A stretch of DNA of 64,000 nucleotides from Escherichia phage ph0011. Of the stretch, positions 3,069-51,248 are shown piece by piece. The notes below the pieces were generated by a model. The model was given only the letters and a program-made list of their open reading frames with translations. It searched no databases and was not told the DNA's origin. A program made the translations under genes and the position numbers. Positions within the stretch are counted from its first letter, which is position 1; every line of letters begins with the position of its first letter. The stretch lies in sequence record OP557969.1; one strand, 5' to 3'.

Positions 3069-3433
3069 ATCGTAAACTTGAGAAACTAATTGAAGAACTA
3101 CGCCGGATGCCACCCATCGAGCAAGTGGGGAGTTACAAACGTTATCGTGTGATTGCTCGTGCACTAGATAAGAAAGGTCGTGTATTGGCAACACGTACTA
3201 ATTCTTACACACATACTCACCCAGTACAGAAAGGTTTTGCAATCCGTGCTGGAAGACCACAAGGTGAGTTTCTTCATGCTGAAATTTCATGTTTATTAGC
3301 TTCACGTGCTGAAGTTCATACTTTGTTGATTGCACGGATAAGTAAAGATGGTATTCCAGTTCCAGCCAAGCCTTGTGAGATTTGTACGTTGGCAATTATG
3401 GAATATGGGGTCAAAGAAATTATTCACACATGA
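3065..3433 (+). CDS. cytidine/deoxycytidylate deaminase-like zinc-binding protein
   Basis: HAE ... PCEIC motif pair (H-x-E and PCxxC zinc ligands of the CDA fold) about 33 residues apart. Confidence 0.45.
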   Translation: MNRKLEKLIEELRRMPPIEQVGSYKRYRVIARALDKKGRVLATRTNSYTHTHPVQKGFAIRAGRPQGEFLHAEISCLLASRAEVHTLLIARISKDGIPVPAKPCEICTLAIMEYGVKEIIHT

Positions 3434-3654
3434 AAAAAATTGAACGCTACAAAAACCATACAGTTGTGACTGAAGATGATATATTTTATTATTATATTTT
3501 CAGACCCACACACTGTTTACAAATAACGACATTTGAGAATGATAATTTCAAAGATGTCAACTTCCATATAACAGATTTAGCTAAATATTCCAGAACTGAA
3601 CACTTTAGTAATCTAGTATTTGTGTACTGTATTCCAAACTCAAATAATAAGTAG
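3430..3654 (+). CDS. hypothetical protein (start moved to ATG overlapping upstream stop)
   Basis: ATGA overlap at 3430-3433; in frame with ORF-track ORF 3382..3654. Confidence 0.4.
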   Translation: MKKIERYKNHTVVTEDDIFYYYIFRPTHCLQITTFENDNFKDVNFHITDLAKYSRTEHFSNLVFVYCIPNSNNK

Positions 3655-3663
3655 GAGATCAAA

Positions 3664-4023
3664 ATGGCTAAAACAATTTCTTTAAAAAATGAAAAGGTAG
3701 GACAACGAAAAGATGGTTTCTATGGTTTTTCTTGGACTACATTATTTTTTGGACCTTTCCCTGCATTGTTTCGTGGTGACTTTATTACGTTCATCGGTGC
3801 ATTTGTAATTTACTTCATCCTCAACGCAGTGTCTTTTTGGATTGTGGGTACAATTGCAATGGTCGTGTGGGCGTTTATTTACAATAAGTACTACACGGTG
3901 AATCTCATCAAGAATGGGTATAAATTCAATGGTACACATGAAGAAAATGCTGAAGCTGCAATGGCTTTGCAAATTGATTTGAATAAAAACAACACAGTTG
4001 ATAAAAATAAAGATCCTGAGTAA
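3664..4023 (+). CDS. predicted integral membrane protein
   Basis: two long hydrophobic stretches (FFGPFPALF..., FVIYFILNAVSFWIVGTIAMVVWAFIY); SD-like AGGAGA upstream. Confidence 0.5.
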   Translation: MAKTISLKNEKVGQRKDGFYGFSWTTLFFGPFPALFRGDFITFIGAFVIYFILNAVSFWIVGTIAMVVWAFIYNKYYTVNLIKNGYKFNGTHEENAEAAMALQIDLNKNNTVDKNKDPE

Positions 4024-4242
4024 ATGGAAAAATATGATATAATTTACGATTATTACGGTAAGGCTTATATGAAGTGTGGACGTTATGTTGAACTCTCTAA
4101 TAGAGAATCAATAGATCCCCACACTCTTATAACAATTCATAACTCGTACTATAAAAAAGTTACAATAGCTAATTTCGCTACCTACGTAAATAATCCGTTA
4201 TTTCCTTACATTATTCAGTACTACTGTCGAGTTATAAAATAA
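4024..4242 (+). CDS. hypothetical protein
   Basis: ORF track; immediately follows upstream stop. Confidence 0.4.
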   Translation: MEKYDIIYDYYGKAYMKCGRYVELSNRESIDPHTLITIHNSYYKKVTIANFATYVNNPLFPYIIQYYCRVIK

Positions 4243-4253
4243 GGTAAAAAGAC

Positions 4254-4664
4254 ATGTTAGCCGATGATTTTATGTCTCTAAGTACCAAAATATTTGATAT
4301 ATTAGGGGATGAAATAGATTTTCATCTAAATGATACAACTATACCATTCGAAGATGGTGGTTATTTTTTCGCAATTGGTTATAAGTACAATGTTGATTTT
4401 TCAATTCCGGTTCCTGATGGAAGTGATTATGCAGAATCAACATATTTTGAATTTCAGTTCAGTGGGCATACTGAGCGTTTACTAACATATAGACGTAAAG
4501 GAAATTTCAGTAGGCCAGAGATCATATTAATGGATTTTGAAAAACGCATAGAACTTGCAAAGAATAATCCATTTATTAGTACTTACGCGTTAAACCAACT
4601 TATTGAACTATTTGATGGCTATCCAGACAGAATACGAGGGTCGTTACGTATAAATGCAGAATGA
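4254..4664 (+). CDS. hypothetical protein
   Basis: ORF track; ATG start. Confidence 0.45.
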   Translation: MLADDFMSLSTKIFDILGDEIDFHLNDTTIPFEDGGYFFAIGYKYNVDFSIPVPDGSDYAESTYFEFQFSGHTERLLTYRRKGNFSRPEIILMDFEKRIELAKNNPFISTYALNQLIELFDGYPDRIRGSLRINAE

Positions 4665-4839
4665 AATCTTTAAAAAAGAATACGATGGTGAAAGCCTTTA
4701 TGATATTCAGAGAGATGTTCATGAAGCCTTTGATTCAAAATTTAACCCATTAGCTGAACAAATCCCACAAGATGAATTTGGTTTTCAGGAAGGCACTTTC
4801 ACAGTGACTATTACATGGAGTCCAGATGAGACTAGCTAA
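4654..4839 (+). CDS. hypothetical protein
   Basis: ORF track; start overlaps upstream gene end. Confidence 0.35.
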   Translation: MQNEIFKKEYDGESLYDIQRDVHEAFDSKFNPLAEQIPQDEFGFQEGTFTVTITWSPDETS

Positions 4840-4944
4840 ACTTGTCATAGGGTGTAGTGCAATTGCTGCATATATGATTTTTTCACCTCCAACCAATGTA
4901 TTACTGCTAATTTGGGCGGTTGTTATATTAGCAGTACTTTAAAG

Positions 4945-4975
4945 CACCCCATAGTGGGTGTTTTTCTTTTTTTGT
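4945..4975 (+). terminator. putative intrinsic terminator
   Basis: short GC stem (gcaccc/gggtg) followed by long T-run tttttcttttttt. Confidence 0.45.
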
Positions 4976-5106
4976 ACAAATAAAAAGCAATGTCTCAATT
5001 CCTTGATATAGGTCAAGAGAAATAACCAGCTATTACGCTATAATGCTTTCTGTTGTTGTTAAATAACTTCACCCCCAGATGATTTCAAAAATACAAGGAG
5101 TGTACT

Positions 5107-6912
5107 GTGCAATTGAATAAATTATACACGGACGTAACGAATTTTCTAAACCAGAGTAATACTGATCTTACAAATGAAAACGCAAATAAAGATGCCAAAT
5201 GTGTAAATACACACAGAGATTTACTTGCTGGTATCTTATCTAAACATTATTCACAAGATGTTATTCCAAAGGATCTAATGCAGTGGCACAATGATGGATA
5301 TGGTCACATTCATGATTTGGACTACTATATTAGTCCATTAACAAACTGTTGTTTGGTTAATTATCCAGATATGCTTAAACATGGGTTTACTATCGGGTGT
5401 GCTAAAATCGAAGAACCAAAGAGTTTTAGTGTAGCATGTACGGTGCTAACACAGATTGTACAAGCTGTTGCAAGTTCCCAATATGGTGGTCAATCGTTGG
5501 CTCACATTGATGTCGGATTGGAACCTTATGTACAAAAGTCTTGGGAAAAGTTATTAGAAAAACAAAAGAAATATAATCTAAGCGATGATTTTATTGAAGA
5601 AGAATTACGAAAAGAAGTATATGATGGGTGTCAAACATTACTATATCAGACCAATTCAATGATTAGCACTAATGGACAAGCTGCATTCATTTCTCTTAGT
5701 TTAGGACTTAATACTTCCAAATTTGGAAAATTAATCACTGAACAGTACTTGAAAGTTCACGAGAATGGTTTAGGTAAAGATAAGATTACACCAGTGTTTC
5801 CTAAAGTTATTTTCTTTCTACAAGATGGTATTAACATGAATGTCAATGATAGTAATTATGATCTTAAACAGTTAGCTATGCGTTGTGCATCAAAAAGAAT
5901 CTATCCAGATTTTGTTTCAGTACCATTAAATCATAAAGTGACGGGAAGTAGTAGCACTGCGGTAACACCGATGGGCTGTCGTTCATTCTTAGGAAAATGG
6001 GAAGATTCAAATGGAAATGAACAATACAACGGTCGCTTCAATTTAGGTGTAGTTTCTATCAATTTACCACTAATTGCTCTTGAAAGTGCCTCAGATGGAG
6101 AGTTTTTTGATAAAATAGACGAGCATATGAATATTGCATATCGTGCTCAGATGAACCGCGTAGAGCGTTTAAAAGGTACAAAAGCGAAACAGAATCCAAT
6201 TTTGTTTATGGAAGGTGCATTAACACGTTTAAGTGCAGAAGAAACTATTGACAAGCTATTTTACAATGGTTATGCTAGTATTAGTATTGGTTATGTTGGA
6301 CTTGTTGAATGTTCGGAAATCCTCACTGGTTCTATCAGTAAGGAGTTTTGTATGTCAGTACTGAATTATATGAAAGTAAAATGCGATGAGTTCAAAAAAG
6401 AAAGTAATATTGCTTTTAGTCTATATGGAACTCCAGCAGAGTCGCTTTGTTATAAATTTGCACGTTGCATTGAAGCAAAATATCCTTCAGTTCTCAAACG
6501 AGATTTCATTACAAATTCATTCCATCAACCAGTATGGGTTGAAAGTTCCGCTTTTGAAAAGTGGGATTATGAGGAAAACTTTGCGTATCTAAGCAATGGT
6601 GGGAATATTAGCTATGTTGAAACACCAAACCTGGCTAATAATATACAAGCACTTGAAACATTGATCAATTATGCATATGATAAAATTCCATATTTTGGAA
6701 TTAATCAGAAAGTAGATAAGTGTTTTGAATGTAATTTTGAGGGAGAATTTAGTGTAGATAAAAATGGTTTTCATTGCCCTGTATGTAATAACAGAAATGA
6801 GCGAACAATGTCTGTTATACGTAGGGTATCTGGATATCTTAGTGCACCAAATAGTCGCCCGTTTAATAAAGGTAAACAAGCTGAAGTAATTCAGCGTATA
6901 CAGCATATGTAA
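5107..6912 (+). CDS. nrdD: anaerobic ribonucleoside-triphosphate reductase (class III RNR), GTG start
   Basis: N-terminus and C-terminal Cys-pair zinc ribbon plus glycyl-radical motif [12 protein letters not shown] match NrdD family as recalled from T4 NrdD; AAGGAG 7 nt upstream of GTG. Confidence 0.93.
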
Positions 6913-17660: not shown

Positions 17661-18062
17661 ATGTTAAATGAACGTATTAAAAATGCACTATATGTATTGA
17701 ACCAAGAAGTTAATTCTATTAATAAAAGTACTGAGCGATATAAAGTATTACATGAAATTAGACAAGAATTGGAATCTATTAATAAGGGAAAATGGGTTCT
17801 TGAACGCGAACGAACTATTGTTGAAAAAGCAATTGCAAAATTCATCTCTGAACGTTATGGTAAAATTTCAGAGGAAGATGTACTAATGAACTTACATCTT
17901 TCACAAACGGAAGTGATGGAGAAATTTCATTTTGATTCATTAGACTGGTTGGAAATGATCATGGAATTGGAAGAAGAATTCAATGTAGAAGTAGATTTAT
18001 ATTATGAAAAACAAGAAACCAAACTATATGAACTAGCAGAACATATTAAACTAATGATGTAA
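17661..18062 (+). CDS. acyl-carrier-protein-like protein with N-terminal extension
   Basis: C-terminal FDSLDWLEMIMELEEEFNVEV matches ACP phosphopantetheine-attachment region (DSLD ... ALEEEF). Confidence 0.55.
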   Translation: MLNERIKNALYVLNQEVNSINKSTERYKVLHEIRQELESINKGKWVLERERTIVEKAIAKFISERYGKISEEDVLMNLHLSQTEVMEKFHFDSLDWLEMIMELEEEFNVEVDLYYEKQETKLYELAEHIKLMM

Positions 18063-18115
18063 ACATATACCATTATATACTCTAAATAATATCATCAACT
18101 ACAGGAGATGATATT

Positions 18116-18490
18116 ATGAGTGTACTAGAAATTATTGTTTCAAAAATTTTAATTCCATATTGGAAGCCGATTTCTTTTGCGTTATTACTCGGTGGTGCGG
18201 CATTATCAGGTTGGAAAGCTAATACTTATTATACTGGTTATCAGCAAAGTATCGAGCAACAAATAGCCAAACAGGTTGATGTCGCACTTGATAAAATGCA
18301 ACAGGAAAATGCAAAAAATTACATTGAAACAAAAAAAATCATGGAAGATAATGCTAAAGTTATTGAAACGAAAGTTCCTTATATAGTAGAACGCAAAGTT
18401 TATAAGAATGTGTGTTTAGATGAAGATGGCGTGAAAATTCTAAATGATCTAAAACAAAATTCACAAGCAATGAGGAATAAGTTAAAATGA
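18116..18490 (+). CDS. putative i-spanin (Rz-like)
   Basis: single N-terminal TM (ISFALLLGGAALSGW) followed by charged coiled-coil-like region; followed by overlapping lipoprotein gene. Confidence 0.5.
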   Translation: MSVLEIIVSKILIPYWKPISFALLLGGAALSGWKANTYYTGYQQSIEQQIAKQVDVALDKMQQENAKNYIETKKIMEDNAKVIETKVPYIVERKVYKNVCLDEDGVKILNDLKQNSQAMRNKLK

Positions 18491-18795
18491 AAAAAATATT
18501 AGTCCCAATGATTTCTTTTTTAATTATAAGTGGTTGTGCTGAACAAGCAAAACTACAATCACCTGCACCTATTAAACAAGAAATTCTATTAGAAAGATGT
18601 GATGATGATACACCTCTGCCACAAAAAATCATGATTGACAATAATGGTTTTAAAGGTTATGATGGTGCAGAAATTCTTAAAGTACTTACTCGTTGGGATG
18701 CAATCTATAATGAGTGTGCTTTAAAACATGATGCCTTGATTAAAACTATTCGCGATTTACAAGGCAAAGATATTAAAATTAATATCAAGGAATAA
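18487..18795 (+). CDS. putative o-spanin (Rz1-like lipoprotein)
   Basis: signal peptide with lipobox IISGC; start overlaps i-spanin stop. Confidence 0.5.
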   Translation: MKKILVPMISFLIISGCAEQAKLQSPAPIKQEILLERCDDDTPLPQKIMIDNNGFKGYDGAEILKVLTRWDAIYNECALKHDALIKTIRDLQGKDIKINIKE

Positions 18796-18796
18796 A

Positions 18797-19414
18797 ATGA
18801 ACAAATATCATGTTTACTATAAGACTAATTTATCACTACTGGAAAAATTAAACCATAAAAGTACTAAGATTAAACACTACACATTAAATGGAATTACTTT
18901 TAAGTATTTTCCACAAAAAGTTCTTACATTTATTAAGAATCCAAAATGCATAGCATGTGGTATTGAAGCAACAGAAGTACGTATTGAACGTACATTTAGT
19001 TCTGACCCAATTTTCGGTAAACCACATTTAAATCTATATGCAGTATGTGGTCTTTATGAAGTTTTAATGACAGTTGACCATAATAATCTAGCATCAAAAG
19101 GTGGTCCAGATTTAGAGTCGAACTTTAATACTATGTGCTCCAGATGCAATCAACTACGTTCAAATAAAACTGAATCAGTTGATGAGTTTCTTGTGAAAGT
19201 TAAAGGTCGTAATCTTCTACAAGAACATATGAATAATTTCTTTAATGTGCAAAATGGACAAAAGAAAAATAGTATTGATAAATCAAAACTACTAGAAGAA
19301 CGTAGATTACAACAAGAATTATGGGAAACTGATCATTTATGGCATGTTCGAGAATTTGGTCGCCATATGAAAGCGTTAAAAAAAGAACAAAAGAAATTGA
19401 ACAATCACAATTAA
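18797..19414 (+). CDS. HNH-family endonuclease (free-standing, homing-endonuclease-like)
   Basis: CIACG ... VDHNNLASKGG ... CSRCNQLRSNK resembles His-Me finger HNH motif with Cys zinc ligands. Confidence 0.55.
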   Translation: MNKYHVYYKTNLSLLEKLNHKSTKIKHYTLNGITFKYFPQKVLTFIKNPKCIACGIEATEVRIERTFSSDPIFGKPHLNLYAVCGLYEVLMTVDHNNLASKGGPDLESNFNTMCSRCNQLRSNKTESVDEFLVKVKGRNLLQEHMNNFFNVQNGQKKNSIDKSKLLEERRLQQELWETDHLWHVREFGRHMKALKKEQKKLNNHN

Positions 19415-21354: not shown

Positions 21355-21362
21355 TATAAATA
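21355..21362 (+). promoter_or_regulatory. T4-type late promoter motif TATAAATA
   Basis: exact TATAAATA about 20 nt upstream of 21381 start, followed by AAGGAGAGA SD. Confidence 0.55.
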
Positions 21363-21380: not shown

Positions 21381-21821
21381 ATGGAAAATATTGAAAATTT
21401 GAGACATGTTATGGATTTTATCATTGATACTGAAGAAGATAGTGCTTATGATGAAATCCTACTAACTTTTATTGAAAATAGTTTGTTTTTAAGTTCTGCT
21501 GCACATAACTGGCATTTACAAAGCCGATTCTATACTAAGCATCTTCAACTGGATGAACTATACAAAGAGTTACCTGAGTATGTTGATGCATTTGTAGAGG
21601 GTATTATGAACACACGCGGTGCATTACAGGTAGGAACTGGTAACAGTTATCGTTTTACCCCTATCGAAGATTGTGTACCAATTCTTGAAGAATATGCGAG
21701 TCAATGTAAAGCCATTCATGCTATGCTTGAGGAAGCTGAAGACTATGGCAGTACTAACACATTAGAAGATATTATTAGTTTTGTAGACGGTGTGCTTTAC
21801 AAACTTAAAGTTTTACAATAA
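21381..21821 (+). CDS. Dps/ferritin-like four-helix-bundle protein (tentative)
   Basis: AHNWHLQSRFYTKHLQLDELYKELPEYVDAFVEGIMNTRG resembles the Dps helix pair (HWNMRG..F..H..LD ... AER) as recalled. Confidence 0.4.
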   Translation: MENIENLRHVMDFIIDTEEDSAYDEILLTFIENSLFLSSAAHNWHLQSRFYTKHLQLDELYKELPEYVDAFVEGIMNTRGALQVGTGNSYRFTPIEDCVPILEEYASQCKAIHAMLEEAEDYGSTNTLEDIISFVDGVLYKLKVLQ

Positions 21822-24289: not shown

Positions 24290-24866
24290 ATTAGTATATT
24301 ACTATGGTAGTATGTCTAGTGGTAAAAGTACTCATCTTTTGCAAAAAGCATATAACCATAAGAAAAATGGAATGAAGGTAATTTACTTAACCAGTGCACT
24401 TGATGATCGTTATGGAACTGGAAAGATTACTTCAAGGATTGGCATCGAAGCTGAGGCTGAAGTAATTCCAAAAAATGACATTAGTGTTCTTCTTAAAGTT
24501 AAAGAAACTCTCAATAATGATGTTGACATTAACAGTATCTATGTTGATGAATGTCAATTTTTAAACAGGGAACAGATTGACCATTTAGCTGATATCGCAG
24601 ATAATTATGGTGTTGATGTTTCTTGTTATGGAATCCGAACAGATTTTGAATCCAACCTATTTGAAGGTTCACAAAGACTGTTTGAAATAGCTGATGACAT
24701 ACACGAACTTAAGAACGTGTGTGAGAATAAGAAGTGTGGTAAAGAAGCTACCATGAATGCTCGTATAGTTGAAAGTACGGAGAAAGTGTTTATTGGTGGT
24801 GACGAATCATATAAAAGCCTATGCAGAAAATGTTACAAAGACTATATGAGGAATAAAAATGGTTGA
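24282..24866 (+). CDS. tk: thymidine kinase
   Basis: P-loop YYGSMSSGKST near N-terminus and C-terminal Cys zinc ribbon (CENKKCGK ... CRKCY) typical of type II thymidine kinases. Confidence 0.9.
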   Translation: MGKLVYYYGSMSSGKSTHLLQKAYNHKKNGMKVIYLTSALDDRYGTGKITSRIGIEAEAEVIPKNDISVLLKVKETLNNDVDINSIYVDECQFLNREQIDHLADIADNYGVDVSCYGIRTDFESNLFEGSQRLFEIADDIHELKNVCENKKCGKEATMNARIVESTEKVFIGGDESYKSLCRKCYKDYMRNKNG

Positions 24867-25080
24867 TACATTATTGAAACGCGTTTTGAATAACGTACTA
24901 TATGGATTAAAAAAAGCAACAAATCTTATTTTTAGTTCAGTAGAAATGATTATTACAGTGCTGGTATTTTCACTTGTGCTACATTTTGTACCATTCTGGT
25001 TAGTTTTCATTGCACTCATTATTACACTTGGTGTACATGTTTATAATGTTTACTTAGAATTAATGAAAGATGGTGATTAA
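24859..25080 (+). CDS. small membrane protein with two TM helices (holin/pinholin candidate)
   Basis: 73 aa, two hydrophobic helices (IITVLVFSLVLHFVPFWLVFIALIITLGV). Confidence 0.4.
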   Translation: MVDTLLKRVLNNVLYGLKKATNLIFSSVEMIITVLVFSLVLHFVPFWLVFIALIITLGVHVYNVYLELMKDGD

Positions 25081-26348: not shown

Positions 26349-26480
26349 ATGAATGGACTAAAGAAGTTTGGTAAAGATTTTCTAAAATGTATACGTTATA
26401 CATATGATGCAAATCCAGAAATGACTGCTATTGTAGGTGTGTTTATTGCACTCGTTGTATTAAGTTTTATTATGGTGTAA
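26349..26480 (+). CDS. small membrane peptide (43 aa) with C-terminal TM helix, not in ORF track
   Basis: ATG at 26349, hydrophobic C-terminus AIVGVFIALVVLSFIMV; fills an otherwise unexplained gap. Confidence 0.35.
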   Translation: MNGLKKFGKDFLKCIRYTYDANPEMTAIVGVFIALVVLSFIMV

Positions 26481-26696: not shown

Positions 26697-27107
26697 ATGA
26701 TTGAAATGGAAGGAACTCTGGTGTATGATCCAGATCGTGGCACTATGAAAAAGAAGAAGGACTTCTGGTTAGTACTACAACTTCCGTTACAGTTGGCTAG
26801 ATACTATCAGTACTTCATTCGAACTGACTTACATATTGACATTAAAGACCCACAATGGGGGGCACATGTCAGTATCGTTCGTGGTGAAGTGCCACCAAAT
26901 CCAGAGTACTGGAAAAAGTACGATGGTAAAAAAATAAAAATACGATTTAACCCTGATATTGTCCAAGTCAAAGATAAAAAGAATCCAGGTTCGTTCTTCA
27001 TTATTGAGTTTGATGATGAATTTATTGGGAATATTCGAAAAGAATTAGGATTACATTCTAAGTATTTACGATACCACATCACTGTAGGAAGAACGTACTA
27101 CGATTAG
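26697..27107 (+). CDS. hypothetical protein
   Basis: ORF track. Confidence 0.45.
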   Translation: MIEMEGTLVYDPDRGTMKKKKDFWLVLQLPLQLARYYQYFIRTDLHIDIKDPQWGAHVSIVRGEVPPNPEYWKKYDGKKIKIRFNPDIVQVKDKKNPGSFFIIEFDDEFIGNIRKELGLHSKYLRYHITVGRTYYD

Positions 27108-27125: not shown

Positions 27126-27153
27126 TTGACATAAAACAAAAACATGCTATAAT
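27126..27153 (+). promoter_or_regulatory. sigma70-type promoter TTGACA-16nt-TATAAT with TGn extended -10
   Basis: perfect hexamers TTGACA (27126) and TATAAT (27148) with 16-nt spacer, upstream of lysozyme gene. Confidence 0.6.
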
Positions 27154-27270
27154 ACTTAAACATTTGAAAAGAACGTTTTTGTACTGTAGAAAGTCCGATG
27201 AGGCTTTTGCAAAATGGCCTCTTTGCCATCTTTGTGATTGCCCATCTTAACAATCAACAAAGGAGGCGTT

Positions 27271-28197
27271 TTGAAACAAGCGAAAAAAGCACTGAAAACT
27301 AAAATTGCCGTAGGCGTATTAGTTTCATCAGCCCTATTCGCTGCTATTGGATTTTATGGTTTTTCACGACATGATCATGCACCATCATTAGACGAAAGTC
27401 AGGTGCATAATTTGAAACCACAGTTGACTCAAATTCAAAAGCAGGAACTACCACAGGTATCAGTACCGAAAACAGTTCCAAGCAGCGAGAAACATTATAC
27501 GGTTCAACCTGGTGATAGTTATTATTCTATTGCTAAAAAGTTTAAACCTAAAAATGTACAACTTGAAGAGTATGTTATTTTGTTGAAAAATATCAATTTA
27601 AATGCTACACTTCATACTTCTCAGGGTATCTTTATCCCAACAAAAGAGGATTTGAAGAACATATTATTACCAGATGTGACTGTTCTGTTTGATTACACTG
27701 ATCCAGAAATTATCAATCACATTAAAGAAGCTGAAGGTTCAATAGAATACCAGTCCAAGAATAAACGACGTTTACTGGGTGGTCAGGTTGGTGTTTCATA
27801 TCGTAATTCTAAATTTTATCCATACCGTGATGTAAAAGGTAACTATACGATTGGGTACGGTCACTACCTTGGTAAGAATGCTTCTGATGCAAGTAAGTAC
27901 CGTAACGGAATTACCAAATCACAAGCACATAAACTTTTATTGGATGACATGGAACGAATTAATAATGATTTAATTTTATTATTGAAGAAGCGAAATGCGA
28001 CAAACCTTACGGTCGAACAACAACGAATTTTATTTGAGATGGCATTTACTCTAGGAGTTGACAAGTTAAACACTTTCAATAAACTATGGAAAAGCGTTGA
28101 AAATCAAAATTACAACAAGTTCAAAAAAGAAATTAAGAATTCTCTATGGTATCGTCAAGTAGGAAACCGTGCAGAATTGTTGTTAAGCTCACTCTAA
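27271..28197 (+). CDS. peptidoglycan hydrolase: N-terminal signal-anchor/TM + LysM + T4-lysozyme-family (GH24) domain; likely TTG start
   Basis: AGGAGG 4 nt before TTG 27271 (ORF track uses TTG 27238); Gly/Ala-rich TM IAVGVLVSSALFAAIGFYGF; LysM YTVQPGDSYYSIAKKF; lysozyme motifs NYTIGYGHYLG and SLWYRQVGNRAELL. Confidence 0.8.
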   Translation: MKQAKKALKTKIAVGVLVSSALFAAIGFYGFSRHDHAPSLDESQVHNLKPQLTQIQKQELPQVSVPKTVPSSEKHYTVQPGDSYYSIAKKFKPKNVQLEEYVILLKNINLNATLHTSQGIFIPTKEDLKNILLPDVTVLFDYTDPEIINHIKEAEGSIEYQSKNKRRLLGGQVGVSYRNSKFYPYRDVKGNYTIGYGHYLGKNASDASKYRNGITKSQAHKLLLDDMERINNDLILLLKKRNATNLTVEQQRILFEMAFTLGVDKLNTFNKLWKSVENQNYNKFKKEIKNSLWYRQVGNRAELLLSSL

Positions 28198-28213: not shown

Positions 28214-28546
28214 ATGCTAAATCTAAACATTCAAGGCAACATTGATATCACTCCAGCAATCCAAGATGCTATTTACAATGAAGCAAAAAGTCTGGATAAG
28301 TACCGTACTTCTTCAGTACTAGACATTGGTGTTCATGTTAAGAAAGAGCATAAAACTCAATATGCTGTAACTTTAACTGCTGGTAGTAAATCAGTGACTG
28401 CTGATGATGCTGATTTGTATAAAGCAATTGTTGAATCTTTTGATAAGATGGAAACTGTATTCAGTAAAGACAAAAGCATTAAATTGCACCGCCGAAACCA
28501 CCCAGAACATCCAGTTCTTGATGATTTGACAGAAAACGAAGAGTAA
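28214..28546 (+). CDS. hpf: ribosome hibernation promoting factor / RaiA (YfiA)-like protein
   Basis: MLNLNIQGNIDITPAIQDAIYNEAKSLDKY ... LYKAIVESFDKMETVF follows the HPF/YfiA pattern (MQLNITG.N.EIT.AL ... LEQY ... MYAAIDGLIDKL) as recalled. Confidence 0.65.
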   Translation: MLNLNIQGNIDITPAIQDAIYNEAKSLDKYRTSSVLDIGVHVKKEHKTQYAVTLTAGSKSVTADDADLYKAIVESFDKMETVFSKDKSIKLHRRNHPEHPVLDDLTENEE

Positions 28547-28556
28547 TATATACTAA

Positions 28557-28586
28557 AGGGACAGAATTAATCTGTCCCTTTTCTTA
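28557..28586 (+). terminator. intrinsic terminator
   Basis: agggacag/ctgtccct 8-bp stem, 7-nt loop, T-rich tail. Confidence 0.7.
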
Positions 28587-34289: not shown

Positions 34290-34550
34290 ATGCTTAAAAT
34301 TATCAGGATACCGAAACAATACATTGATGTTAAATAATATAAAGTATTGGGTTGACCCATACTTTAATAATTCATTGTTAATGTACAGAGATAAAAGTCG
34401 AGATTTATACGGAATATATGTTACGCAGTTAATATATGCTATAGATTCAGAACATTTTACTCCGTTGGTATACCTGTACTGTCTTTATAATTCCAAATAA
34501 CTATTAGCACCTCTAAATAATGTATATAAACATTAATGAGGTGCTTTTTT

Positions 34551-49634: not shown

Positions 49635-49881
49635 TTGACAAGTTGAAAATGATGTGATATAATAAACATCACAATGAAAGTTTTCAAGTTTCACATGATG
49701 TGAGATTGAAAAAAAGAAAAAATAGTTGACGAGTTGAAATGATGTGATATAATGTTCACATCAAGACAACAAAGAGATTTACCTTTTAAACACACGGATG
49801 ATTCATGAAGTAACAAAGGAACTGATAAGTTAAAATATTTTAACACAGTTCCTTTACTTTTGCACACGGATTGGCTATAAT
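49635..49881 (+). promoter_or_regulatory. tandem promoter/leader region: P1 TTGACA-17-TATAAT (49635/49658), P2 TTGACG-16-TATAAT (49726/49748), P3 -10 TATAAT (49876); inverted repeats overlap the -10 elements
   Basis: consensus hexamers with TGa extended -10; GATGTGA/TCACATC inverted repeat flanks P2 -10; CACACGGAT repeated at 49792 and 49863. Confidence 0.6.
49815..49862 (+). terminator. leader hairpin/attenuator candidate between P2 and P3
   Basis: 10-bp stem aaaggaactg/cagttccttt with 21-nt loop, then acttttg. Confidence 0.4.
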
Positions 49882-49922: not shown

Positions 49923-51248
49923 ATGACTACTCAAAACGATATCCTGAACGTTAAACTGACTCCAAAGAAAGCTAAAGAAGCAATGGCACTAGCTGACATG
50001 ATTCAAGATAGCCTGATGATTTGGGGTAGCCCAGGTATCGGTAAGTCTGCAATCGCTCGTCAATATGCTGATGAAAATTATCCACTGCGTAAAGACAACG
50101 AAGCCAAAATTGAGTTAATGAAACAACAAATTGAAGCTGACCCAGAGAATGCTGAACAGCTACGTCGTGAACTAGCTGCATTTGAAGCAAAACTGATCGA
50201 CCAAGATACAAACTTTATCGATTTCCGTTTGTCTCAGATTGAACCAAGTGACCTTCGTGGTATTCCAGTTCCAGAGAAACTTTTCCGTAAAACTGATGGT
50301 TCTCTCCTAAAAGAATCTGAGCTTGCTGAAGCAAAAGATTATGTAGCTGAAACAGCAGTAGTATGGGCAGCACCTAAAGTACTGAAATTACCAGATGATT
50401 GGAAAGGTGTTATTCTGTTTGACGAAATTAACTCTGCAATGCCAATTGTTCAGGCAGCGTCTTATCAGCTAATTCTCGACCGTTGTGTTGGTGAGATGAA
50501 GCTACCGAAAACTGCCCTGATTCTTGCAGCAGGTAACCGTGAAACTGATGGCGGTGTGACGTTCTCACTGGCTACACCACTACGTGACCGTATGACACAC
50601 ATTGAGATGATTCCTTATCATCAAGATTGGATCAACGATTATGCAATTGGTAAACGTTTGAACCCAGCAACTGTTGCGTTCATCAACAACACAGGTTCTA
50701 AGTACTTTAACACTCTTAGCCCACAAGATCCTTCTCACAGCGGTGGTACATCTCCGCGTTCATGGGAAGCAGTAGCACGCTACGAAGATCTGAAGAAAAC
50801 TAAGACGATTGATAAAGAAGTATTCCGTGCAATGATTGCGGGTCGTGTAGGTGAAGGTGTTGCAACTGAATACATTGAGTACGTTGATAACGTTGCAAAA
50901 CTCCCAGATACCATGTCTATTCTGTCTGGTGAAATCAAAGATATCGATGCGTCTCTTGATATTTCTGCTAACTACTTTATCACACTGAACTTGGTTTATA
51001 AAATTATTGACCTGTACAATGAGAAGCAAGAACAACGTCTACCAGTGGAAGAATGGGGTAAATTGTGCAACAACTTCATCACCTTCCTAGACCATAACTT
51101 CTCTGCAACTCAAGCAGAATTGGCAGTGCTGGCAATCCGTACCATTACACTACATAAGGTTTTGATTTCCATTAAAGATGTACCAGCGTTTAAAGATTTT
51201 ATCGCTAAGTACTCTGAACTAGTTCGTAAAGCACGCTCTCTTGGGTAA
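49923..51248 (+). CDS. MoxR-type AAA+ ATPase (CobS-like)
   Basis: Walker A GSPGIGKS, Walker B ILFDEINSA, overall MoxR/CobS-like layout. Confidence 0.75.
   Translation: MTTQNDILNVKLTPKKAKEAMALADMIQDSLMIWGSPGIGKSAIARQYADENYPLRKDNEAKIELMKQQIEADPENAEQLRRELAAFEAKLIDQDTNFIDFRLSQIEPSDLRGIPVPEKLFRKTDGSLLKESELAEAKDYVAETAVVWAAPKVLKLPDDWKGVILFDEINSAMPIVQAASYQLILDRCVGEMKLPKTALILAAGNRETDGGVTFSLATPLRDRMTHIEMIPYHQDWINDYAIGKRLNPATVAFINNTGSKYFNTLSPQDPSHSGGTSPRSWEAVARYEDLKKTKTIDKEVFRAMIAGRVGEGVATEYIEYVDNVAKLPDTMSILSGEIKDIDASLDISANYFITLNLVYKIIDLYNEKQEQRLPVEEWGKLCNNFITFLDHNFSATQAELAVLAIRTITLHKVLISIKDVPAFKDFIAKYSELVRKARSLG

What the first reader, a model, noticed from the sequence alone, without database searches (positions are those of the whole stretch)
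27238..28197. Lysozyme with signal-anchor and LysM, probable TTG start, and dispersed lysis genes
The T4-lysozyme-family catalytic domain is preceded by a LysM motif and a Gly/Ala-rich N-terminal TM segment of the SAR (signal-anchor-release) type. The only SD-backed start is a TTG (27271) 4 nt after AGGAGG. The spanin-like pair is 9 kb upstream (18116..18795) and no obvious holin is adjacent; candidate small TM proteins are at 24859 and 26349. This implies a pinholin-type lysis pathway with scattered components.
Basis: partly seen in the sequence, partly recalled or inferred. Interest (0 to 1): 0.4.

Follow-up and report, generated by a model that had tools for sequence, protein, structure and literature searches.

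The report
Membrane-anchored LysM lysozyme of jumbo phage
This gene encodes an exported, membrane-tethered cell-wall-cutting enzyme (a T4-type lysozyme with a LysM wall-binding module) that RaK2/121Q-type giant phages of enterobacteria most likely use to burst their host; the same architecture and role were already proposed for close relatives in 2017, so the gene is ordinary, although its conserved non-ATG start and conserved mRNA leader point to tight control that nobody has explained.

Summary
TTG 27271..28197 encodes 308 aa: an N-terminal hydrophobic helix, a roughly 45-aa disordered linker, a LysM-like fold and a T4-type lysozyme domain with invariant Glu155/Asp187/Thr193. AGGAGG lies 4 nt before the TTG.

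The window is an Asteriusvirus-like jumbo coliphage. The gene is the ortholog of 121Q gp532, CBB_187, GAP32 gp180 and RaK2 ORF029. Buttimer et al. 2017 already predicted this family to be a signal-arrest-type endolysin and annotated a TTG start. The finding is therefore already known.

The spanin pair at 18116..18795 is real and carries a late-type promoter motif.

"SAR plus pinholin" is not shown:
- The anchor is about 125 residues from the catalytic domain.
- Most homologs carry an AAA motif that could be a signal-peptidase site.
- No holin family matches any small membrane protein in the window.
- The gene has a consensus host sigma-70 promoter rather than the late motif.

Support for an endolysin role:
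- It is the only GH24 paralog absent from the virion proteomes.
- In another phage contig a homolog directly follows homologous spanins.

New side observations:
- The start codon is non-ATG in nearly all lineages.
- A single-copy, structured 5' leader is conserved and has no Rfam match.
- The gene forms a conserved operon with a ribosome hibernation factor.

The parts
27126..27153 (+). Consensus host-type (sigma-70) promoter: TTGACA, 16 nt, TGcTATAAT (extended -10).
   Evidence: It is a 12/12 match with TG. Only two such sites occur in the 64-kb window, both intergenic. Weakened versions are conserved in other Asteriusviruses (TTGTAA/TTGATA with TGCTATACT). Comparable sites occur in RaK2 (TTGACA-17-TAAAAT) and in the L188 lineage (TTGACA-17-TATAAT).
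27160..27270 (+). 5' leader of the lysozyme mRNA (about 110 nt), single copy per genome.
   Evidence: The leader is 99.1% identical to 121Q/PBECO4-type phages, whose protein is only ~79% identical, and occurs at one place per record. It has no Rfam match. The fold z-score is -2.4.
27186..27196 (+). Invariant leader core GTAGAAAGTCC.
   Evidence: The core is identical, apart from one substitution in L110, in Asterius-, Eneladus-, GAP32-, CBB- and Munch-type leaders. The shorter AGTCCA is kept in RaK2, L189 and L119. The motif is unique in the window.
27200..27221 (+). Leader hairpin H2: GAGGCUUUU, GCAA loop, AAUGGCCUC.
   Evidence: Predicted by RNAfold. In relatives 92% of cells are paired, against 38-60% for slid controls, and two pairs show compensatory changes (C-G/A-U and A-U/G-C). 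RaK2 has GUGGC/GCCAC.
27225..27267 (+). Leader hairpin H3, which encloses the Shine-Dalgarno sequence: 27225-27240 pairs with 27251-27267.
   Evidence: Present in the MFE of the window and UE-S1 leaders. Eneladus-type leaders form an unrelated-sequence helix, CCUUAUUACGCA with UGUGUAAUAAGG, that also buries the SD. The predicted cost of opening it here is only 2.4 kcal/mol.
27261..27266 (+). Shine-Dalgarno AGGAGG, 4 nt before the start codon.
   Evidence: Read directly from the sequence. AAGGAGG or GGAG is conserved in all orthologs.
27271..28197 (+). CDS of 308 aa with a TTG start: TM-LysM-GH24 lysozyme, ortholog of 121Q gp532, CBB_187 and RaK2 ORF029.
   Evidence: The start codon is TTG or GTG in 18 of 19 lineages read, and ATG only in the RaK2 annotation.
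27304..27363 (+). N-terminal hydrophobic segment (residues 12-31, IAVGVLVSSALFAAIGFYGF), preceded by a +5 charged N-tail. It is a signal anchor, a SAR-like domain or a signal peptide.
27493..27633 (+). LysM-like peptidoglycan-binding module (residues 75-121).
   Evidence: Partial Pfam LysM match. Beta-alpha-alpha-beta fold with pLDDT above 90. RefSeq names the orthologs 'LysM peptidoglycan-binding domain-containing protein'.
27703..28188 (+). GH24 (T4-type) lysozyme domain (residues 145-306). Catalytic residues: E155 (27733-27735), D187 (27829-27831), T193 (27847-27849). There are 31 residues between Glu and Asp.
28214..28546 (+). HPF/RaiA-type ribosome-associated protein, 16 nt downstream of the lysozyme gene and probably co-transcribed with it.
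   Evidence: Pfam Ribosomal_S30AE, E 2.5e-10. The synteny is conserved in Asterius-, Eneladus-, Kaldavass- and L189-type phages.
28555..28581 (.). Terminator-like hairpin that closes the lysozyme-HPF unit.
   Evidence: Found by the terminator scan. Annotated as a terminator in UE-S1 and G17.
18116..18490 (+). i-spanin: N-terminal TM segment followed by a coiled-coil region.
   Evidence: phrog_1152 'Rz-like spanin', E 1.2e-26. Sequence. Homologous to the i-spanin next to a TM-LysM-GH24 gene in L120/L196 (blastp 1e-10).
18487..18795 (+). o-spanin: lipoprotein with lipobox LIISGC. Its start overlaps the i-spanin stop by 4 nt.
   Evidence: Homologous to the L120 o-spanin (blastp 1e-15).
18080..18090 (+). 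Late-type promoter-like motif CTCTAAATAAT upstream of the spanin pair.
   Evidence: The identical 11-mer lies upstream of the neck gene at 34511. TAAATAA lies 21-67 nt upstream of the neck, sheath and tube genes. It resembles the ATAAATA late motif reported for CBB and GAP32.
26349..26480 (+). 43-aa tail-anchored membrane protein. It is a candidate lysis accessory protein whose function is unknown.
   Evidence: A conserved NP motif followed by a C-terminal TMD, placed 2-3 genes upstream of the lysozyme in all lineages read. Matches phrog_37784, of unknown function.
24859..25080 (+). 73-aa protein with two adjacent hydrophobic helices, overlapping the end of the thymidine kinase gene. There is no evidence that it is a holin.
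   Evidence: phrog_22328, unknown function. It has an acidic C-terminus.

Best explanation
The gene encodes a Sec-exported GH24 muramidase. Its single N-terminal hydrophobic helix tethers it, at least initially, to the periplasmic face of the inner membrane. A roughly 45-residue flexible linker lets a compact LysM-plus-lysozyme unit reach the peptidoglycan.

It is the non-virion member of three GH24 paralogs in RaK2/121Q-type jumbo phages. It most likely acts as the phage's endolysin, and the separately encoded, late-promoter-driven i-/o-spanin pair then disrupts the outer membrane.

Its expression differs from a typical late lysis gene. It sits in a two-gene unit with an HPF/RaiA homolog behind a consensus host sigma-70 promoter. 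Translation is probably kept low by a conserved TTG/GTG start and by a conserved structured leader that can bury the Shine-Dalgarno sequence.

Shown here: the domain anatomy, the catalytic residues, the start codon and its conservation, the promoter and leader sequences, the spanins, and the protein's absence from published virion proteomes. Inferred: export and topology, the role in lysis, and what the leader does. Whether activation needs a holin, membrane depolarisation (SAR-type release) or only gradual accumulation is not known.
For: - Architecture and catalytic triad.
- Export signal: a +5 N-tail followed by about 20 hydrophobic residues.
- Non-virion status. phAPEC6 gp293c is the ortholog and was not detected by MS, while the hub gp241 was. 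CBB_187 is not among the CBB structural proteins. Eneladusvirus virions contain the 96-kDa hub and the 18-kDa T4L-like paralog but no ~35-kDa lysozyme.
- Toxicity of CBB_187 on induction in E. coli, reported as data not shown.
- Link to lysis. In IMG/VR contig 3300033072_000363 a 35%-identical TM-LysM-GH24 gene directly follows spanins homologous to those of this window.
- Relatives with the same Glu-Asp insertion carry other export signals.
- The spanins carry a late-type motif.
- Promoter.
- Non-ATG start conserved.
- Leader conservation and structure.
- The family is restricted to phages: 70 jumbo-phage records, 81 protein clusters, and no full-length homolog in 185,579 genomes.
Against: - No experiment on any member shows muralytic activity, export or a lysis phenotype.
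- The only enzyme of these phages tested so far is the 162-aa paralog LysUE1, which is muralytic in vitro and which its authors treat as the phage lysin.
- The sigma-70 promoter, the lack of the late motif and co-transcription with HPF suggest early or continuous transcription, which is unusual for an endolysin.
- The predicted occlusion of the translation start is modest in this phage: a 2.4 kcal/mol opening cost and rank 3 of 82 genes. The tail sheath gene scores lower still.
- No holin was found.
Confidence: 0.6

Rival explanations
1. One reading: this is a classical SAR (signal-arrest-release) endolysin. It accumulates inactive in the membrane and is released and activated when a pinholin, possibly the product of 24859 or 26349, depolarises the membrane.
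For:
- The same proposal was made for CBB_187.
- The 43-aa membrane protein at 26349 is conserved and syntenic near the lysozyme gene across the clade.
- Sharanji-infected cells bulge before lysis.
Against: - The anchor lies about 125 residues from the catalytic Glu, behind a disordered linker and the LysM module. The known SAR mechanisms, in which the SAR helix cages or completes the catalytic domain, cannot apply.
- A ~45-aa linker should let the tethered enzyme reach the wall. This is my inference from periplasm dimensions recalled from memory.
- TM hydrophobicity is not conserved as SAR-like across the family (range -3.0 to +2.8, median 0.24).
- Neither small ORF matches a holin family, and 24859 has an acidic C-terminus.
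- The promoter is host-type, not late.
Confidence: 0.2
2. The protein is not the main endolysin. It is an early or continuously made periplasmic wall-remodelling enzyme, for example one that loosens the sacculus in cells that enlarge or filament during a long jumbo-phage infection, or one that acts in phage-phage competition. The final lysis would then use another enzyme.
For: - The consensus sigma-70 promoter and the absence of the late motif.
- The conserved operon with a ribosome hibernation factor, within a block of nucleotide- and tRNA-metabolism genes.
- The weak start codon and the leader imply deliberately low dosage.
- Filamentation and bulging of Sharanji-infected cells.
- A soluble, muralytic 162-aa paralog exists.
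Against: - The 162-aa paralog sits between the gp25-like and hub genes, and its 18-kDa counterpart was detected in Eneladusvirus virions. It therefore looks structural, which leaves this gene as the only non-virion lysozyme.
- A homolog is adjacent to spanins in another phage.
- T4 gene e is also transcribed early but translationally masked (PMC3014915), so early transcription does not exclude a lysis role.
Confidence: 0.2
3. The N-terminus is a cleavable Sec signal peptide. The mature enzyme would then be a soluble periplasmic LysM-lysozyme, comparable to secreted endolysins such as Lys44 of Oenococcus phage fOg44 (recalled from memory).
For: - 33 of 56 homologs have AAA, and 48 of 56 satisfy a simple -3/-1 rule, immediately before the conserved [IF]G[FL]xGF.
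- The N-region is positively charged (median +3).
- The hydrophobic core before AAA is only 8-10 residues long in many homologs.
- A related GH24 protein in L130 has a typical signal-peptide-like N-terminus.
Against: - This ortholog has FAA, and Phe at -3 is disfavoured.
- The residues after the putative cleavage site (IGFYGF) are hydrophobic and conserved, as expected for a continuing TM helix.
- No signal-peptide predictor was available here.
Confidence: 0.12
4. [quoted passage not shown]
For: - The second-best PHROG match is the baseplate-hub tail lysozyme family (E 4e-22).
- G17, Munch and SE_PL carry such labels.
Against: - The PHROG match covers only the shared GH24 domain; the hub itself is a separate 887-aa protein.
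- The ortholog is absent from three virion proteomes.
- The gene lies outside the structural modules.
Confidence: 0.03

Closest known systems
CBB_187 / 121Q gp532 / GAP32 gp180 / RaK2 ORF029 (RaK2-like jumbo phage 'lysozyme', predicted endolysin; Buttimer et al. 2017, PMC5259590)
   Same: It is the same protein family and the same gene position. Identity is 54% to the CBB and GAP32 proteins, 78.5% to 121Q gp532 and 96% to UE-S1 UES1_480. The TM-LysM-GH24 order, the TTG start and the HPF neighbour are all shared.
   Different: Nothing essential differs. This ortholog has a somewhat more Gly/Ala/Ser-rich anchor and a consensus sigma-70 promoter that Eneladus-type phages lack at this position.
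SAR endolysins (P1 Lyz, phage 21 R, phiKMV gp45)
   Same: Both have a GH24-type catalytic domain with an uncleaved-looking, weakly hydrophobic N-terminal TM segment, which allows holin-independent export.
   Different: - In the known cases the SAR helix abuts the catalytic domain and controls the active site. Here a ~45-aa disordered linker plus a LysM module intervene.
- There is no adjacent pinholin or holin.
- The promoter is host-type.
- Release from the membrane is untested.
T4 gene e lysozyme and its translational control
   Same: The catalytic fold and the Glu/Asp/Thr triad are shared. The lysis genes are dispersed and the spanins lie elsewhere. T4 e mRNA made early has its ribosome-binding site sequestered in a hairpin (PMC3014915); here too the leader can bury the SD.
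   Different: - T4 e is soluble, needs holin T, and starts with ATG.
- In T4 the block is relieved by late promoters located inside the hairpin. No late motif lies inside this leader.
- This enzyme has a 21-residue longer Glu-Asp segment.
Paralogs in the same phages: the 162-aa T4L-like lysozyme (LysUE1, CBB_239) and the 887-aa baseplate hub with a C-terminal lysozyme (UES1_535, phAPEC6 gp241)
   Same: All belong to the same GH24 subfamily and share the insertion between the catalytic Glu and Asp.
   Different: The paralogs lack the TM segment and LysM, lie in the baseplate module about 63 kb away, and have been detected in virions: the hub in phAPEC6 and CBB, and both the hub and the 18-kDa form in Eneladusviruses. 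This protein has 10 extra residues in the insertion.
Modular endolysins of Gram-negative jumbo phages (phiKZ KZ144, EL188)
   Same: A wall-binding module lies N-terminal to the catalytic domain, which is unusual for phages of Gram-negative hosts (noted).
   Different: KZ144 and EL188 use a different binding domain and a transglycosylase, and they have no TM segment or export signal (plus my own knowledge).

Membership tests
GH24 / T4-type phage lysozyme (Pfam PF00959) | Profile match above the curated threshold | tested here: met
   41 bits against a cutoff of 22.3, residues 184-298. A profile built from the family hits T4 lysozyme chains at E 2.6e-16.
GH24 / T4-type phage lysozyme (Pfam PF00959) | Catalytic Glu, Asp and Thr (T4L E11, D20, T26) present and conserved | tested here: met
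   E155, D187 and T193 are invariant in 29 homologs and align with the T4L triad. The Glu-Asp spacing is 31 residues rather than 9.
GH24 / T4-type phage lysozyme (Pfam PF00959) | T4L-like two-lobed fold | tested here: met
   The AF2 domain 145-306 has pLDDT above 90. The top Foldseek hits are T4L, with TM-score 0.63 on the target.
GH24 / T4-type phage lysozyme (Pfam PF00959) | Muramidase activity | not testable with these tools
   No assay has been done on any family member. Only the 162-aa paralog has been assayed.
LysM domain (PF01476) | Profile match and beta-alpha-alpha-beta fold | tested here: met
   The match is marginal and partial: 21.6 bits against 20.9, profile positions 1-17 of 43. 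The model shows E75-77, H84-91, H98-108 and E119-121 at pLDDT above 90. Two homologs carry precomputed PF01476 hits.
LysM domain (PF01476) | Binds peptidoglycan | not testable with these tools
   No data.
SAR endolysin | N-terminal TM domain of low hydrophobicity, rich in Gly/Ala/Ser/Thr | tested here: inconclusive
   This ortholog scores +1.15 kcal/mol with 47% GAST, which is SAR-like. The family median is 0.24, and some members reach -2 to -3, which is like stable anchors.
SAR endolysin | TM domain not cleaved by signal peptidase | tested here: inconclusive
   An AAA/xAA motif precedes the conserved IGFxGF in most homologs. This ortholog has FAA. No predictor or experiment was available.
SAR endolysin | SAR helix adjoins the catalytic domain and keeps the tethered enzyme inactive | tested here: not met
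   About 125 residues separate the anchor from E155: a disordered linker at 25-72 and the LysM module at 75-121.
SAR endolysin | Sec-dependent export and release from the membrane on depolarisation | not testable with these tools
   Needs fractionation, with and without uncoupler, and SecA inhibition.
SAR endolysin | Partnered with a pinholin or holin in a lysis cassette and expressed late | tested here: not met
   No holin family hit among the small TM ORFs of the window. The gene has a sigma-70 promoter and lacks the late motif. The neighbours are a 2H phosphoesterase and HPF.
Two-component spanin (Rz/Rz1-like), for 18116..18795 | i-spanin with an N-terminal TMD and a periplasmic coiled-coil region | tested here: met
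   phrog_1152 'Rz-like spanin', E 1.2e-26. Sequence.
Two-component spanin (Rz/Rz1-like), for 18116..18795 | o-spanin that is a small lipoprotein with a lipobox, with its gene adjacent to or overlapping the i-spanin gene | tested here: met
   MKKILVPMISFLIISGC, with a 4-nt overlap with the i-spanin gene. Homologous to the overlapping o-spanin of L120.
Pinholin (S21-like), for ORF 24859 and ORF 26349 | About 70 aa, two TMDs of which the first is SAR-like, a charged basic C-terminus, adjacent to a SAR endolysin, holin family match | tested here: not met
   ORF 24859 has two contiguous, strongly hydrophobic helices and an acidic C-terminus, and lies 2.2 kb away behind tk. ORF 26349 has a single C-terminal TMD. 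Both match only PHROGs of unknown function.

The most novel reading that the evidence does not exclude
RaK2-like jumbo phages may time lysis without a conventional holin. A self-exporting, membrane-tethered LysM-lysozyme would be transcribed from a host-type promoter from early in infection. Its synthesis would be metered at the translational level by a conserved non-ATG start and by a previously undescribed, clade-specific leader RNA.

The leader contains an invariant GUAGAAAGUCC core flanked by covarying hairpins, with alternative pairings that expose or bury the Shine-Dalgarno sequence. It could respond to a phage or host factor, so it would be a new riboregulator acting as the lysis clock.
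Probability: 0.15. Interest if true: 0.6.

Novelty: already known. Interest (0 to 1): 0.3.

Why it matters
The gene itself adds nothing new. Its architecture, TTG start and predicted signal-arrest endolysin role were published for orthologs in 2017.

What remains open, and is made sharper here, is how these 350-kb phages lyse their hosts. No holin is known, and three lysozyme paralogs exist, two of which appear to be virion parts. The candidate endolysin carries a host-type promoter, a conserved weak start codon and a conserved structured leader.

If the leader proves to be a functional switch, it would be a new phage riboregulator and a handle on lysis timing in jumbo phages. The enzyme is also a rare LysM-bearing lysin from a Gram-negative phage, of some interest for enzybiotic work.

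Tried and rejected
- **Rfam.** The whole window at gathering thresholds and the leader at E<=10 gave no credible family.
- **Collection scan for the leader motif.** GTACN{0,3}TGTAGAAAGTCC returned 98 stretches. tblastn showed that only those from ~350-kb contigs sit next to the lysozyme gene. The rest are about the number expected by chance for 16 specified bases in a collection of that size (my estimate), so they were dropped.
- **T4 gene e scheme.** I looked for a late promoter inside the SD-sequestering hairpin. There is no TATAAATA or TAAATAA in the leader, so this was rejected as the relief mechanism.
- **Leader relay model.** I considered a uniform ON/OFF relay (helix A, H2, helix C, H3). 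It works in silico for Kaldavass but the logic differs in Munch, L110 and L114, and the energy gap is small in this window. It is not claimed.
- **Alignment-based folding.** RNAalifold on MAFFT alignments recovers only an invariant helix without covariation. H1 could not be put in register automatically.
- **TIR accessibility.** As evidence of repression it is weak: rank 3 of 82, and the tail sheath gene scores lower.
- **Holin search.** PHROG and Pfam scans of every small TM ORF with an SD in the window gave nothing. The holin mentioned for fEgEco12 is not in the 44-kb stretch I read and was not located.
- **Bacterial or prophage homologs.** None have this architecture.
- **Transcriptomics.** None was found for any RaK2-like coliphage. 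PA5oct has RNA-seq data but no ortholog among its five wall-degrading proteins.
- **LysUE1.** The primer did not match the window, and the gene lies about 63 kb downstream, outside it.
Full report
**What the window is.** The window has 34% G+C. The 4 kb around the finding matches 35 jumbo phages of E. coli and Salmonella of the PBECO4/121Q type (genus Asteriusvirus) at 85-93% nucleotide identity. The finding's gene is the ortholog of UE-S1 UES1_480 (96% amino-acid identity), G17_00390, fEgEco12 g275, phAPEC6 gp293c and 121Q gp532.

- The mechanical ORF starts at TTG 27238.
- AGGAGG lies at 27261-27266, followed by CGTT and then TTG at 27271, in frame.
- There is no in-frame ATG before the hydrophobic segment. 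The 27238 TTG has no SD and has no counterpart in UE-S1.
- Five independent annotations use the 27271-equivalent start.
- Pfam finds Phage_lysozyme (41 bits) and a marginal, partial LysM match (21.6 bits against a 20.9 cutoff).
- An AlphaFold2 model built on 29 homologs gives a helix at 3-24, a low-confidence linker at 25-72, a beta-alpha-alpha-beta LysM-like unit at 75-121 and a helical domain at 145-306, both with pLDDT above 90.
- The catalytic domain superposes on T4 lysozyme, and the family profile hits T4L chains at E 2.6e-16.
- Glu155, Asp187 and Thr193 are invariant and align with T4L E11/D20/T26.
- The Glu-Asp segment is 31 residues long. The insertion is shared with the two paralogs described below, and this protein has 10 extra residues in it.

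**It is already in the literature.** Buttimer et al. 2017 (PMC5259590) described CBB_187, with homologs GAP32 gp180, 121Q gp532 and a RaK2 protein, as the predicted endolysin. They reported an N-terminal TM domain, a LysM-like domain and a C-terminal lysozyme, compared it to the 'signal arrest' lysins P1 Lyz and phiKMV gp45, and noted that induction in E. coli stops growth. Their supplement lists a TTG start.

**Three lysozyme paralogs, and which one is the endolysin.** Asteriusviruses carry two further GH24 genes, both about 63 kb downstream of this one in the baseplate module and outside the window. One is a 162-aa T4L-like gene and the other is an 887-aa hub with a C-terminal lysozyme.
- The 162-aa protein of UE-S1 (LysUE1) is muralytic in vitro with EDTA and was presented by its authors as the phage lysin (PMC12805682).
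- In phAPEC6, the hub gp241 was found in virions by MS and gp293 was not. gp293c is the ortholog of this gene.
- CBB_187 is not in the CBB structural list.
- Eneladusvirus virions contain a 96.3-kDa and an 18.1-kDa 'lysozyme' but no ~35-kDa one (PMC7760394 Table S5).

The TM-LysM form is therefore the only paralog with no evidence of being a virion part. That favours it as the endolysin and counts against the 'tail lysozyme' labels in some records.

**Link to lysis from another phage.** In IMG/VR contig 3300033072_000363, a 35%-identical TM-LysM-GH24 gene directly follows an overlapping i-/o-spanin pair. Those spanins are homologous to the two ORFs at 18116..18795 of this window (blastp 1e-10 and 1e-15). 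More distant GH24 relatives with the same insertion carry a signal-peptide-like N-terminus (L130) or a Gly/Ala/Ser-rich TM segment (L121). The full-length family occurs in 70 jumbo-phage records from nine host genera and in 81 protein clusters, all about 300-330 aa. It was not found in 185,579 bacterial and archaeal genomes.

**The spanins.** ORF 18116..18490 matches the 'Rz-like spanin' PHROG (E 1.2e-26). ORF 18487..18795 starts MKKILVPMISFLIISGC, which contains a lipobox. Thirty-three nucleotides upstream lies CTCTAAATAAT, and the same 11-mer precedes the neck gene. TAAATAA lies 21-67 nt upstream of the neck, sheath and tube genes. It resembles the ATAAATA late motif reported for CBB and GAP32. 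The spanins therefore look like late genes.

**Is it a SAR endolysin with a pinholin?**
- Across 80 homologs the value ranges from -3.0 to +2.8 with a median of 0.24, so SAR-like weakness is not a conserved property.
- 33 of 56 homologs have AAA, and 48 of 56 pass a simple -3/-1 rule, just before a conserved [IF]G[FL]xGF. A cleaved signal peptide therefore cannot be excluded, although this ortholog has the less favourable FAA.
- The anchor is about 125 residues from the catalytic Glu.
- A ~45-residue disordered linker should allow the tethered enzyme to reach the wall. This is an inference.
- None of the small membrane ORFs of the window matches a holin family.
- ORF 26349 (43 aa, tail-anchored, NP motif) is conserved 2-3 genes upstream of the lysozyme in every lineage read and is the better candidate accessory protein.
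- ORF 24859 overlaps the end of tk and has an acidic C-terminus.

**Expression signals.** The gene has its own promoter, TTGACA-16-TGcTATAAT at 27126-27153. It is one of only two perfect sigma-70 sites with an extended -10 in the 64-kb window, and both are intergenic. Other Asteriusviruses keep a weaker version. RaK2 and the L188 lineage have their own sigma-70-like sites. Eneladus-type phages have no room for one, because the leader begins at the upstream gene's stop codon.

The late motif is absent here. The HPF/RaiA homolog follows 16 nt downstream and a terminator closes the unit. This pairing is conserved in distant relatives.

The start codon is TTG or GTG in 18 of 19 lineages read, and ATG only in the RaK2 annotation.

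**The leader.**
- The ~110-nt leader is 99% identical to 121Q-type phages whose protein is 79% identical, and it is single copy.
- Its core GUAGAAAGUCC and the block GNCUUU(G)UGCAAA are invariant between genera whose proteins are about 54% identical.
- A hairpin 5' of the core changes sequence completely between lineages while staying a hairpin, with UUCG, CUUG or GAAA loops.
- Hairpin H2 (window 27200-27221, GCAA loop) is 92% paired in ten relatives, against 38-60% for slid registers, with two compensatory pairs.
- A third helix (27225-27240 with 27251-27267) buries the SD. Eneladus-type leaders do the same with an unrelated sequence.
- There is no Rfam match.

The evidence for function is conservation. 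The energetic case is weak in this phage: 2.4 kcal/mol to open the SD and accessibility rank 3 of 82. The switching logic is not uniform across lineages.

T4 gene e offers a precedent for masking a lysozyme's ribosome-binding site in early transcripts (PMC3014915). The T4 relief mechanism, late promoters inside the hairpin, is not present here.

**Verdict.** The feature is real and correctly described. It is a known family with a published and still untested functional prediction. I rate 'exported, membrane-tethered endolysin acting with the late spanins' at about 0.6. The specific 'SAR plus pinholin' mechanism rates about 0.2. An early or accessory wall-remodelling role also rates about 0.2. 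The conserved weak start and leader RNA are the only parts that may be new.

Noticed in passing
window 27160-27270 (core 27186-27196; H2 27200-27221; H3 27225-27267): The lysozyme gene has a conserved, single-copy, structured 5' leader with an invariant GUAGAAAGUCC core, covarying flanking hairpins and an SD-burying helix. It has no Rfam family. It is 99% identical to 121Q-type phages although the protein is only 79% identical.
   Followed up: partly
window 27271; loci L001-L009, L108-L119, L188-L195: The start codon of this gene is non-ATG (TTG, sometimes GTG) in 18 of 19 lineages read, always behind a strong SD. This suggests selection for weak initiation of a toxic product.
   Followed up: yes
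window 28214-28546: A phage-encoded HPF/RaiA (ribosome hibernation/S30AE) homolog lies immediately downstream of the lysozyme gene and is apparently co-transcribed with it. The pairing is conserved in distant RaK2-like genera. The reason for the linkage is unknown.
   Followed up: partly
window 26349-26480: A 43-aa tail-anchored membrane protein has a basic amphipathic N-terminus, an NP motif and a C-terminal TMD. It is conserved and syntenic 2-3 genes upstream of the lysozyme in all lineages (CBB_184, Kaldavass 'membrane protein'). Its PHROG has no known function.
   Followed up: partly
L196 (IMGVR_UViG_3300033072_000363), reverse-complement coordinates 3176-5152: A myovirus contig in which overlapping spanins homologous to those of this window are directly followed by a TM-LysM-GH24 homolog, forming a compact lysis cluster next to tail genes.
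   Followed up: partly
window 49635-49663: The second perfect sigma-70 promoter with an extended -10 in the window lies in the intergenic region upstream of the 441-aa ATPase-like gene at 49923. A further 11/12 site lies at 49726-49753.
   Followed up: no
window 18083, 21357, 34514, 38396, 41466, 42245, 45234, 47848: TAAATAA (a T4-late-like motif) lies 21-67 nt upstream of the spanin, Dps-like, neck, sheath and tube genes. 12 of its 17 plus-strand occurrences are within 90 nt upstream of a gene start.
   Followed up: partly
window 17661-18062 and 18797-19414: An acyl-carrier-protein-like ORF lies immediately upstream of the spanin pair and an HNH endonuclease lies immediately downstream. The ACP-spanin neighbourhood, and the presence of ACP in virions, were also noted for Eneladusviruses (PMC7760394).
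   Followed up: no
window 26697-27107: The gene just upstream of the lysozyme promoter encodes a 2H-phosphoesterase-like protein (Pfam 2H-SAK, 24.4 bits, below the 27-bit cutoff). It is syntenic in L189. Some records mislabel it 'viral L protein'.
   Followed up: no
window 21381-21821: A DUF5856/Dps-like protein, annotated elsewhere as rI.-1-like or starvation-inducible DNA-binding protein, is preceded by an exact TATAAATA at 21355.
   Followed up: no
L004 (UE-S1 300051-303239), outside the window: The experimentally muralytic 'LysUE1' (162 aa) sits between the gp25-like and hub genes. Its 18-kDa counterpart was detected in Eneladusvirus virions, so it may be a baseplate component rather than the endolysin its authors assumed.
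   Followed up: partly
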